DNA of 64,000 nucleotides from IMG/VR virus record IMGVR_UViG_2724679073_000003. One strand, given 5' to 3'. The position numbers and the translations under genes are program-made. Below the pieces are notes generated by a model. It searched no databases. It worked only from the letters and a program-made list of their open reading frames with translations, and was not told where the DNA came from. The first letter of the stretch is position 1, and the number at the start of each line of letters is the position of its first letter. Origin of the DNA: a virus (taxonomy: Duplodnaviria; Heunggongvirae; Uroviricota; Caudoviricetes). Of the stretch, positions 12,333-13,173 are shown one piece after another.

Positions 12333-12356
12333 CACAAAAAAGCCCCGTTCAGGGGC
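12333..12356 (-). terminator. Rho-independent terminator after the T5orf172-like gene
   Basis: On the - strand: hairpin GCCCC-TGAAC-GGGGC followed by TTTTTTGTG. Confidence 0.6.
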
Positions 12357-12363
12357 ATCAGTG

Positions 12364-13173
12364 TTATTTGCTAAGAGCAGCGAATAATCGTTCGAAATCG
12401 ATAGTATCTATAGCACGCGTAAGCGCCGGAAGTTCAGCCTCAAAGTACCCGTGTCGATCGTAAAAGAAGGGACCGAAGAGCGAGGCATGTTGGATTCTAC
12501 TTCGCCCCAGCCCGGACACACAGTTAAGCCCATTACCGGCTAAAAGGCTAAAAAACTTCTCTGGATTATCGTGGTAAAGCTGGGAATCAATGGTGGCGGT
12601 TAACTCTTCCATAGGGAAGCACACCCGCCCTGTCTCCCAGGGATATTTAGTCCGAAGCATAAACATTGCTTTCAGCAATTCACATTGAGCGCGGATCGCG
12701 TCCGGTTCATAGCCAGATATGGAGACATAAGCCACGTCCCTCATTCCTGCGTCATCTTTGAAAGTCACGATAGAAGTAACATCCAGCTCTTTTTCGAAAG
12801 AGCAAGCAGCATCTACTGGACGCTGAAGTAAATCATTCGACTTGATGCGCTCGAGAATCCCTCCCCACATATCATTTAGATATTCGATATGAGCCAAAAC
12901 CTTATCAAGACACTCTCGTGTAAACCATTCAGTATGCCCGCCACCGGCGCTTTTCTCCCACGGCGCATTCCAGGGGAAAAAGGTTGCGTGTAAAGCCCGC
13001 TCAAGATTAACCATTGCCAAACGCGTACCACGATAGACCCGTGAAAGCGCAAAATCGGGACTCACTTGTAGCCCTTTAAACCGTGCCAATGGACCACATG
13101 AAATGCCGATTTTAAAAGTATCTCCGTTCTCTGGCACCAGAACGTAGAGGTAGTGTTGTTTCTCTTCTTGCAT
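12364..13173 (-). CDS. T5orf172 / GIY-YIG-like domain protein, 269 aa
   Basis: N-terminal YLYVLVPENGDTFKIGIS...R...L and GGGHTEWF motifs typical of the T5orf172 subfamily of GIY-YIG; own terminator. Confidence 0.65.
   Translation of the reverse strand: MQEEKQHYLYVLVPENGDTFKIGISCGPLARFKGLQVSPDFALSRVYRGTRLAMVNLERALHATFFPWNAPWEKSAGGGHTEWFTRECLDKVLAHIEYLNDMWGGILERIKSNDLLQRPVDAACSFEKELDVTSIVTFKDDAGMRDVAYVSISGYEPDAIRAQCELLKAMFMLRTKYPWETGRVCFPMEELTATIDSQLYHDNPEKFFSLLAGNGLNCVSGLGRSRIQHASLFGPFFYDRHGYFEAELPALTRAIDTIDFERLFAALSK

What the first reader, a model, noticed from the sequence alone, without database searches (positions are those of the whole stretch)
12333..13173. T5orf172 / GIY-YIG-like gene with its own terminator inserted between incA iterons and the par operon
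In P1 as I recall it, incA is followed directly by the par promoter. Here a 269-aa ORF with YLYVLVPENGDTFKIGIS...R and GGGHTEWF motifs occupies that gap, co-oriented with repA and parA and ending in a strong - strand terminator just before the par promoter. GIY-YIG-family free-standing genes are often mobile homing-endonuclease-like insertions; its C-terminal ~170 aa has no obvious identity.
Basis: partly seen in the sequence, partly recalled or inferred. Interest (0 to 1): 0.55.

Follow-up and report, generated by a model that had tools for sequence, protein, structure and literature searches.

The report
Nuclease gene riding P1-type replicon cassette
The 269-aa gene is real and encodes a T5orf172/GIY-YIG-type DNA nuclease with a replication-initiator-like DNA-binding tail; it is not a fresh insertion into phage P1's replicon but a dispensable, fast-evolving passenger of an alternative plasmid-replication cassette carried by about 8% of complete E. 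coli genomes.

Summary
There is a 269-aa ORF at 12364-13173 (-), a T5orf172 Pfam hit above the curated cut-off, an intrinsic terminator at 12336-12356, iterons upstream and Ppar downstream.

The reading "inserted into P1's incA-par gap" is only partly right. The window is an SJ46/RCS47-type P1-like phage-plasmid. Its whole replication cassette (window 12298-14547) replaces P1's IncY cassette: origin iterons, repA (40% identical to P1 RepA), seven incA-like iterons, the nuclease gene and its terminator.

Searches of about 15 billion proteins found three other full-length relatives (24-44% identity among the four). All lie between repA/incA and parA of P1-like elements, one of them beside a P1-type RepA. 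Rep type and nuclease type swap together.

Residues matching the catalytic set of the characterised T5orf172 nuclease Odn are invariant. The C-terminal domain has no sequence match. Its model best resembles Rep_3 initiator WH1 domains, and close T5orf172 relatives are fused to true Rep_3 domains.

The gene is weakly constrained (pN/pS 0.31, against 0.02 for repA). It is disrupted in 10 of 69 copies, so it is dispensable.

Best reading: a selfish or competitive site-specific nuclease of the replicon cassette. Its function is untested.

The parts
12364..13173 (-). CDS of the 269-aa two-domain protein (stop codon included)
   Evidence: ORF list. T5orf172 hit above the Pfam cut-off. phrog_2876 full length. 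99-100% identical copies in about 400 PLSDB plasmids. pN/pS 0.31 over 30 alleles.
12859..13173 (-). N-terminal T5orf172 / GIY-YIG-like nuclease domain (about aa 1-105)
12367..12816 (-). C-terminal domain (about aa 120-269): a predicted winged-helix domain that resembles Rep-initiator WH1
12336..12356 (-). Intrinsic terminator of the nuclease gene (stem 12342-12356, T-run 12336-12341)
   Evidence: Terminator scan. RNA fold, hairpin -10.2 kcal/mol. An analogous hairpin plus T-run follows the L052 homologue.
12250..12278 (-). par operon promoter Ppar, shared with P1 and outside the swapped cassette
   Evidence: P1 annotation transferred through 99% identity. Promoter scan.
13209..13463 (.). incA-like iteron array between repA and the nuclease gene. 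Two iterons are in repA orientation (13426-13439, 13450-13463). Five are inverted at about 31-bp spacing (13209-13222, 13239-13252, 13271-13284, a degenerate one near 13302, 13333-13346).
   Evidence: Pattern search and repeat finder. The last iteron ends 36 nt before the ATG. The distance is 20-36 nt in all four cassettes.
13466..14350 (-). repA (p0111-type Rep_3 initiator, 294 aa from the ATG at 14350; the mechanical ORF extends to a TTG at 14386)
   Evidence: ORF. Rep3_C and Rep3_N Pfam hits. RefSeq annotation of RCS47. 40% identity to P1 RepA.
14432..14530 (-). Five origin iterons at 21-bp spacing (incC analogue)
12298..14547 (-). Whole exchangeable replication cassette that replaces P1's incC-repA-incA segment
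   Evidence: BLAST against P1. An analogous swap with the same boundaries is seen between L003 and L050.
14548..14700 (-). Conserved half of oriR (five GATC sites and a TTATCCACA DnaA box), shared with P1 and flanking the cassette
   Evidence: Sequence. P1 annotation and homology.

Best explanation
The ORF encodes a two-domain, probably active, site-specific DNA endonuclease. The N-terminal domain is a T5orf172 (GIY-YIG superfamily) catalytic domain. The C-terminal domain is a winged-helix domain whose closest structural relatives are the WH1 domains of iteron-binding Rep_3 initiators.

The gene is the last element of a self-contained plasmid-replication cassette: origin iterons, repA, incA iterons, nuclease, terminator. 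P1-like phage-plasmids exchange this cassette by recombination in the conserved flanks, which are the DnaA-box/GATC half of oriR on one side and the par promoter on the other. The gene starts 20-36 nt after the last RepA-binding iteron. I therefore infer that it is transcribed through, or from within, RepA-bound DNA. Its terminator insulates Ppar.

The gene is not needed for replication or partition. I infer that it acts in conflicts between related replicons. Two versions fit. It may work as a homing-type nuclease, or as an origin-directed nuclease in the manner of ICP1 Odn. In the first it cuts cassette-less or differently cassetted P1-like DNA. In the second it cuts at sites read by the WH domain. 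Either would favour its own cassette through repair-mediated cassette conversion or elimination of the rival.

Shown here: gene, domains, conserved catalytic residues, cassette structure, synteny, co-swapping, dispensability. Inferred: nuclease activity, DNA target, selfish or competitive role.
For: - Catalytic residues. G23, R31, E58 and E82 are invariant in 143 relatives. E58 aligns with Odn E180, whose E180A mutant is catalytically dead (PMC8263062).
- C-terminal domain. Rep WH1, RepE, pPS10 RepA and RctB are the best non-nuclease structural matches by two methods. In the nearest T5orf172 clade the commonest extra Pfam domain is Rep3_N: 4 of 143, best E 8.4e-14, and two of those also carry Rep3_C.
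- Cassette and synteny. The swap against P1 spans 12298-14547. All four known family members lie between repA/incA and parA of P1-like elements.
- Co-swapping. L003 and L050 share a 96-99% identical backbone and ParA/ParB at 100/98%, yet RepA is 39% and the nuclease 27% identical. The breakpoint is 63 bp after the nuclease stop codon.
- Accessory or conflict-like evolution. pN/pS is 0.31, against 0.022 for repA and 0.002 for parA. The protein is 44% identical where RepA is 83% and ParA 89%. 10 of 69 copies are disrupted by at least five independent events, including an IS200/IS605 insertion. The gene is absent from every P1/P7 (IncY) replicon I inspected: P1, H154 (L053) and the IncY rows listed from PLSDB.
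- Precedent. T5orf172 homing endonuclease genes sit at boundaries of genetic exchange (PMC10448857). Odn is a T5orf172 domain plus a Rep-derived DNA-binding domain that cuts iterons (PMC8263062).
Against: - No biochemical data exist for this protein, and no target site can be named.
- Profile-profile comparison with P1-family RepA, and with the Rep3 domains of fused relatives, found nothing (probability 0.1-0.2%).
- No p0111-type replicon cleanly lacks the gene, so the presence/absence polymorphism typical of an active homing endonuclease is seen only between cassette types.
- Physical linkage alone explains why the nuclease and RepA swap together, and the breakpoints simply coincide with where conserved sequence begins.
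- The window and L003 have the same iteron consensus, but their C-terminal domains are only about 32% identical. That argues against the domain simply reading its own iterons.
- No PADLOC or NCBIfam family matches.
Confidence: 0.5

Rival explanations
1. It is a domesticated T5orf172 protein that works as a DNA-binding or RepA-binding regulator of the replicon. It would tune RepA availability, handcuffing at incA or par transcription, by analogy with PLE CapR, rather than cutting DNA.
For: - It is placed immediately after the RepA-binding incA iterons in all four cassettes.
- It always travels with repA.
- WH1 is the dimerisation and iteron-binding module of Rep_3 initiators (established knowledge), and it is the best structural match of the C-terminal domain.
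- CapR shows that T5orf172 proteins can be domesticated as repressors (PMC10448857).
Against: - The residues matching the nuclease active site are invariant down to 24% identity and across 143 relatives.
- P1 and P7 replicate and are copy-controlled without the gene.
- 14% of natural copies are disrupted, and pN/pS is about 15-fold higher than for repA.
- There is no sequence similarity to RepA.
Confidence: 0.2
2. It is a prophage-encoded defence or superinfection-exclusion nuclease that attacks unrelated incoming phage or plasmid DNA. Its position in the replicon cassette would then be incidental.
For: - It evolves fast, with relaxed or diversifying change.
- It is an accessory, dispensable gene on a temperate element.
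- A distant N-domain relative, P0019, sits in a mobile-element region beside a ParB_N/DUF7673 gene rather than beside a rep gene.
Against: - No match to any PADLOC model.
- The full-length family is confined to one slot of P1-like replicons among about 15 billion proteins. That is unlike defence genes, which move between contexts.
- There is no partner gene: the neighbours are repA and parA.
Confidence: 0.12
3. It is a decaying remnant of an old homing endonuclease with no present function, retained only because it sits inside a cassette that is inherited as a block.
For: - 10 of 69 copies carry nonsense, frameshift or IS disruptions.
- The reference phage SJ46 itself appears to carry Q228* (L026, identified by matching contig length).
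- Truncated protein clusters P0002 and P0003 have hundreds of members.
- pN/pS is much higher than for the neighbouring genes.
Against: - pN/pS of 0.31 is still well below 1 in both domains.
- The reading frame and catalytic residues have survived divergence down to 24% identity in four lineages.
- 86% of copies are intact.
Confidence: 0.1
4. One reading: a recent free-standing homing-endonuclease insertion into the incA-par gap of an otherwise P1-type replicon.
For: - Canonical P1 lacks a gene there.
- The gene has its own terminator.
Against: - The neighbouring repA and iterons are themselves non-P1: RepA is 40% identical and the iteron consensus differs.
- Homologues at 24-44% identity occupy the same slot in other cassette types.
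- No trace of the gene or of a target-site duplication is found in P1's spacer.
Confidence: 0.04

Closest known systems
ICP1 Odn (Gp88), the origin-directed nuclease (PMC8263062)
   Same: - T5orf172 nuclease domain with the same conserved residues: Odn E180 aligns with E58 here, and Odn is a structural hit.
[quoted passage not shown]
- Biology tied to modular ori/RepA cassettes that are swapped between elements.
   Different: - The domain order is reversed: in Odn the DNA-binding domain is N-terminal and the nuclease C-terminal.
- Odn's DNA-binding domain has recognisable sequence homology to RepA_N of its target. Here the similarity is structural only and to Rep_3 WH1.
- Odn sits in a lytic phage and attacks a satellite. 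This gene sits in cis, inside the replicon cassette itself.
- No activity has been shown for this protein.
Free-standing GIY-YIG / T5orf172 homing endonucleases (I-TevI and Seg proteins of T4; T5orf172 homing genes of ICP1 and T5-like phages; PMC10448857)
   Same: - N-terminal catalytic domain followed by a C-terminal DNA-binding domain, as in I-TevI (established knowledge).
- A stand-alone gene with its own terminator between conserved essential genes.
- It lies at a boundary of genetic exchange.
- Patchy distribution and frequent degeneration.
   Different: - The DNA-binding part is not a CapR/DUF723-type zinc finger and not the I-TevI zinc-finger/HTH module.
- No gene-less allele of the same cassette is known.
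- The gene has stayed in one slot through divergence down to 24% identity.
PLE CapR (domesticated T5orf172 repressor)
   Same: It is a T5orf172-family protein of a mobile element whose role depends on sequence-specific DNA binding.
   Different: CapR binds DNA through a Zn-finger CapR domain. Whether the protein here is catalytically inactive is unknown, and its active-site residues are conserved.
T5orf172-Rep_3 fusion proteins P0015, P0043 and P0129 (uncharacterised metagenomic proteins)
   Same: They are among the closest N-domain relatives (E 4.8e-10 to 2.9e-4). They share the same order: N-terminal T5orf172, then Rep3_N (WH1), with or without Rep3_C.
   Different: Their Rep domains pass Pfam thresholds. 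The window protein's C-terminal domain does not, and shows no profile-profile similarity to them. Their genomic context is unknown.
Existing database entries: RefSeq 'GIY-YIG nuclease family protein' (for example RCS47 YP_009624912.1), phrog_2876, JL22 gp57
   Same: This is the same protein at 97-100% identity. The JL22 paper states that repA' (p0111) and an unknown gene gp57 replace repA (IncY).
   Different: Those entries give no function, no domain analysis of the C-terminal part, and no statement that the gene belongs to the cassette in several Rep types.

Membership tests
T5orf172 domain family (Pfam PF10544, GIY-YIG clan) | Profile match above Pfam's gathering score | tested here: met
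   27.5 bits against a cut-off of 20, E=4.7e-6, aa 8-85. Homologues P0004, P0009 and P0011 also match.
T5orf172 domain family (Pfam PF10544, GIY-YIG clan) | GIY-YIG-like alpha/beta fold | tested here: met
Active GIY-YIG-type nuclease | Conserved catalytic Tyr (first strand), Arg (first helix) and metal-binding Glu | tested here: met
   Y8/Y10, R31 and E58 are invariant in the four family members, Odn and ICP1 gp121. E58 aligns with Odn E180. G23, R31, E58 and E82 are invariant in 143 relatives.
Active GIY-YIG-type nuclease | Demonstrated DNA cleavage | not testable with these tools
   Needs a purified protein and a nuclease assay.
Homing endonuclease gene | Presence/absence polymorphism at the same locus in otherwise homologous genomes | tested here: inconclusive
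   It is absent in the P1/P7 IncY cassettes examined and present in L050, whose RepA is 83% identical to P1's. Within the p0111 type no empty allele was found: 404 plasmids have the cassette and 401 the gene or a remnant of it.
Homing endonuclease gene | Cleaves the gene-less allele near its insertion site and spreads by repair | not testable with these tools
   Needs in vitro cleavage mapping and co-infection crosses.
Odn-like origin-directed nuclease | DNA-binding domain homologous to a replication initiator's origin-binding domain | tested here: inconclusive
Odn-like origin-directed nuclease | Iteron-dependent cleavage of an origin | not testable with these tools
   Needs nuclease assays on ori/incA fragments with and without iterons.
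P1-type iteron replicon (Rep_3 initiator with incC/incA arrays) | Rep_3 initiator flanked by an origin iteron array and a downstream control array | tested here: met
   Rep3_C 27.1 bits (cut-off 21.1); Rep3_N 21.8 bits, just under its cut-off of 22.4. There are 5 origin iterons and 7 downstream iterons. The DnaA box and GATC cluster are shared with P1 oriR.
Known anti-phage defence systems (PADLOC-DB 2.0) | Match to any defence-protein model | tested here: not met
   0 families at E<=1.

The most novel reading that the evidence does not exclude
P1-like phage-plasmids carry, inside their exchangeable replicon cassette, an Odn-like weapon. This would be a T5orf172 nuclease whose Rep-WH1-like domain lets it recognise iterons, or dock onto the RepA, of rival or ancestral replicon types. 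It would cut them and so enforce replicon exclusivity or drive conversion of the rival to its own cassette.

If true, it would be a nuclease-based layer of plasmid incompatibility and replicon replacement. It could help explain why IncY and p0111 cassettes alternate on near-identical P1 backbones and almost never co-occur in one genome: 2 observed against about 27.5 expected. That depletion is also expected from shared par and immunity functions.
Probability: 0.2. Interest if true: 0.8.

Novelty: new variant of a known kind. Interest (0 to 1): 0.5.

Why it matters
The p0111-type replicon is one of the two replicons of P1-like phage-plasmids. These elements carry ESBL and other resistance genes. 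The p0111-type repA is present in 415 of 5426 complete E. coli genomes.

The cassette always carries a conserved-active-site nuclease with a replication-initiator-like DNA-binding domain. That raises a directly testable idea: replicon cassettes compete, or replace each other, with the help of a dedicated nuclease, as phage ICP1 and its satellite PLE do.

The result also points to an unexplored class of T5orf172-Rep_3 fusion proteins.

If instead the gene is a decaying homing endonuclease, the finding is ordinary. It would still be a useful correction to the annotation and to the assumption that the gene was 'inserted into P1'.

Tried and rejected
- A remnant of the gene in P1's 190-bp incA-Ppar spacer. 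tblastn with all four proteins at E<=100 gave only noise.
- Sequence similarity of the C-terminal domain to RepA or to Rep3 domains. hhalign probabilities were 0.1-0.2%. Pfam and PDB sequence searches found nothing meaningful.
- Known defence families or NCBIfam names: none.
- An ncRNA in the region: no Rfam match at E<=1.
- More divergent family members. Scans of GTDB genomes, IMG/VR and JGI metagenomes returned only near-identical copies or unrelated T5orf172 genes. PLSDB contains no P0009-type or P0011-type genes.
- Context of the T5orf172-Rep3 fusion relatives: not retrievable.
- A first AF2 run with 2 sequences was too poor to use (pLDDT 49). The afdb50 fold library was unavailable.
- A convincing sigma-70 promoter for the gene. 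None was found on the - strand between repA and the ATG, so the transcription start remains unresolved.
- Co-occurrence of the two replicon types in E. coli genomes is strongly depleted: 2 against about 27.5 expected, and I estimate Poisson P about 5e-10. I do not count this as evidence for nuclease-mediated exclusion, because shared ParABS, C1 immunity and other P1 functions predict the same depletion.
- The 101-aa ORF at 13062-13367 and other ORFs overlapping the iterons have no support and are treated as spurious.

Full report
**1. What is there**

The window region 9-17 kb is P1-like on the - strand: upfA, oriR, repA, an iteron array, the ORF in question, then parA and parB.

The ORF is 12364-13173 (-), 269 aa. 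Pfam T5orf172 matches residues 8-85 above the curated cut-off (27.5 against 20 bits), with weaker MUG113 and Tox-URI2 hits from the same clan. PHROG phrog_2876 matches end to end. PADLOC and NCBIfam give nothing.

Eight nucleotides after the stop codon lies a GCCCC/GGGGC hairpin followed by T6, at 12336-12356. It sits about 58 bp upstream of the -35 of the P1 par promoter, which is conserved at 12250-12278.

Matches to the iteron TTGACTATRCGCGA form two arrays. Five lie upstream of repA at 21-bp spacing (14432-14530). Seven lie between repA and the ORF: two direct, and five inverted at about 31-bp spacing. The last of these ends 36 nt before the ATG.

**2. It is a cassette, not an insertion**

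Megablast shows the window belongs to the SJ46/RCS47/JL22 group of P1-like phage-plasmids.

Against canonical P1, homology runs to 12297 and resumes at 14548. The 2250 bp between replace 1491 bp of P1. RepA is only 40% identical to P1 RepA.

The right-hand breakpoint falls inside oriR. The half with the DnaA box and five GATC sites is shared, while the iterons are not. So the gene is the last element of an alternative (p0111-type) replication cassette.

PLSDB holds 404 plasmids with this cassette and 401 with the protein. All are at least 90% identical, and there are no distant homologues in other plasmids. [quoted passage not shown] RefSeq calls the product 'GIY-YIG nuclease family protein'.

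**3. The family and its context**

The word-indexed search of 5.8 billion clusters and the exhaustive HMMER search of 1.84 billion representatives found only three other full-length relatives: P0004 (44% identical), P0009 (26%) and P0011 (26%). Among the four, pairwise identities range from 24% to 44%.

All three sit between repA/incA and parA in P1-like elements, flanked by the same P1 genes.

| Element | RepA type | RepA identity |
|---|---|---|
| Window, L003 | p0111-type | 83% to each other |
| L050 / L051 (Salmonella) | P1/IncY-type | 83% to P1 RepA |
| L052 | third type | 41-47% to the others |

- L003 and L050 have the same backbone: DNA 96-99% identical, ParA 100%, ParB 98%. Their RepA is 39% and their nuclease 27% identical.
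- The swapped segment ends 63 bp after the nuclease stop codon, against 66 bp in the window-versus-P1 comparison.
- RepA, iterons and nuclease therefore move as one module.
- The ATG lies 20-36 nt after the last inverted incA iteron in every cassette type, although the iteron sequences differ between types.
- Canonical P1 and the P7-type IncY plasmid examined (H154/L053) lack the gene. P1's spacer shows no remnant of it.
- The simplest history is that the gene was present in the ancestor of these cassettes and was lost in the E. coli IncY lineage. The direction cannot be proven.

**4. Is it a working nuclease?**

A 5-sequence AlphaFold model reached pLDDT 72.8.

For the N-terminal domain:
- Foldseek against viral models returns T5orf172 proteins, Hef-like homing endonucleases and ICP1 ORF88, which is Odn.
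- Aligned with Odn and ICP1 gp121, the invariant residues are Y8, L9, Y10, K21, G23, R31, G49, E58, G79, E82 and F84.
- Odn's E180, whose E180A mutant is catalytically dead (PMC8263062), aligns with E58.
- G23, R31, E58 and E82 are invariant across 143 relatives.
- Retention of this set through divergence down to 24% identity argues for an active enzyme.

**5. The C-terminal domain**

It has no Pfam or PDB sequence match. In the model it is an alpha/beta domain with a winged-helix core.

- then ORC/Cdc6 and other winged-helix proteins

Foldseek independently puts RctB, MSBI1.176 WH1, RepE54 and pPS10 RepA at the top. However, its E-values are 0.07-1, none of them significant.

Support comes from relatives. 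Among the 143 closest T5orf172 proteins, the commonest additional Pfam domain is Rep3_N/WH1 (4 proteins, best E 8.4e-14). Two of those also have Rep3_C/WH2. One protein has KfrA_N, and others have assorted HTH or wHTH domains.

Against it, profile-profile comparison with the P1-family RepA and with those fused Rep3 domains gives nothing.

I therefore rate 'winged-helix DNA-binding domain' as likely. I rate 'derived from, or mimicking, Rep WH1' as suggestive only.

**6. Selection and dispensability**

The analysis used 30 distinct alleles and Nei-Gojobori p-distances averaged over allele pairs.

| Gene | pN/pS |
|---|---|
| Nuclease, whole | 0.31 |
| Nuclease, N-terminal domain | 0.28 |
| Nuclease, C-terminal part | 0.33 |
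| repA | 0.022 |
| parA | 0.002 |

Of 69 evaluable copies, 59 are intact and 10 are disrupted:
- 8 carry nonsense mutations: W68*, S112* and Q228*. The Q228* copies include L026, a 103,445-bp contig that I take to be SJ46 because the record length is identical.
- 1 has a frameshift.
- 1 is interrupted by an IS200/IS605 element with a deletion.

Between the window and L003 the protein is 44% identical, while RepA is 83% and ParA 89%. The gene is therefore under purifying selection but far less constrained than its neighbours. It is not required for plasmid maintenance.

**7. Mechanism**

The data fit a site-specific nuclease that serves the cassette rather than the host plasmid's housekeeping. 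Two known paradigms are close.

- Free-standing GIY-YIG/T5orf172 homing endonucleases sit between essential genes and mark boundaries of genetic exchange (PMC10448857).
- ICP1 Odn is a T5orf172 nuclease fused to a RepA-derived DNA-binding domain. It cuts the iterons of a rival's origin and selects for replicon-module swapping (PMC8263062).

Here the nuclease lies inside a swapped replicon module and carries a possibly Rep-like domain. I commit to 'conflict or selfish nuclease of the replicon cassette' at about 0.5.

The alternatives are a domesticated regulator of replication (0.2), a defence or exclusion nuclease (0.12), a functionless relic (0.1) and the original 'recent insertion' reading (0.04).

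The p0111 and IncY repA genes almost never co-occur in one E. coli genome. They are found in 415 and 359 genomes, with a union of 772. That gives 2 co-occurrences against about 27.5 expected. Shared par and immunity functions explain the depletion equally well, so I do not use it as evidence.

**8. Novelty and verdict**

The gene's existence and generic annotation are known. The following were not stated in the papers I read or the annotations I saw:
- its fixed membership of the replication cassette across three Rep types
- its restriction to this single genomic slot
- its conserved active site combined with relaxed constraint and recurrent decay
- the Rep-WH1-like C-terminal domain, with genuine T5orf172-Rep_3 fusions among its relatives

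I class it as a new variant of a known kind (T5orf172 homing or origin-directed nucleases). Interest is 0.5. The main uncertainty is the complete lack of functional data, together with the modest confidence of the structural inference.

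Noticed in passing
window 14548-14700, and L001 5890-6012: The replicon swap keeps one half of oriR (TTATCCACA DnaA box and five GATC sites, about 96% identical to P1). It replaces only the iteron half, repA and incA. The conserved origin half therefore appears to serve as one recombination flank for cassette exchange. The same boundary is seen between L003 and L050.
   Followed up: partly
L046 6294-8058: One copy of the nuclease gene is interrupted by an IS200/IS605-family element (389-aa TnpB-like ORF plus 141-aa Y1 transposase-like ORF), with loss of about codons 99-174.
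   Followed up: partly
L026 (103,445-bp contig, same length as Salmonella phage SJ46) and L075: The copy in what appears to be the reference phage SJ46 carries a premature stop (Q228*). Experiments on SJ46 would therefore be testing a truncated protein. S112* is shared by five IMG/VR contigs, and W68* occurs in one.
   Followed up: partly
E. coli complete genomes: p0111-type repA occurs in 415 and IncY repA in 359 of 5426 genomes, but only 2 genomes have both (about 27.5 expected if independent). The two replicon types of P1-like plasmids are almost mutually exclusive. The cause was not resolved: par incompatibility, C1 immunity or something else.
   Followed up: partly
proteins P0015, P0043, P0129 (also P0036, P0012): Uncharacterised proteins fuse an N-terminal T5orf172 nuclease domain to genuine Rep_3 initiator domains (WH1, or WH1+WH2). 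P0012 fuses it to a MarR-type wHTH. This is a possible wider class of initiator-mimicking nucleases. Their genomic contexts could not be retrieved.
   Followed up: partly
L052 compared with L050, L003 and the window: The RepA and nuclease relationships disagree. L052 RepA is closest to the p0111 type (46-47%), but its nuclease is closest to the one next to the P1-type RepA (39% against 24-26%). This hints at recombination between repA and the nuclease gene within cassettes, or at very uneven rates.
   Followed up: no
window 13466-14386: The mechanical repA ORF starts at a TTG (306 aa). The ATG at 14350 gives the 294-aa product annotated in RCS47 and aligns with the homologues' N-termini. One extra iteron-like match (TTGACTATAAGCGA, 1 mismatch) lies inside repA at 13733-13746.
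   Followed up: no
P0005 (E. coli plasmid protein ABN773_26325) and P0007, P0008, P0010: Several database proteins are rearranged or frameshifted versions of this gene. P0005 joins about 80 unrelated N-terminal residues to residues from about 107 onward. These are further independent disruptions beyond those counted in the census.
   Followed up: no
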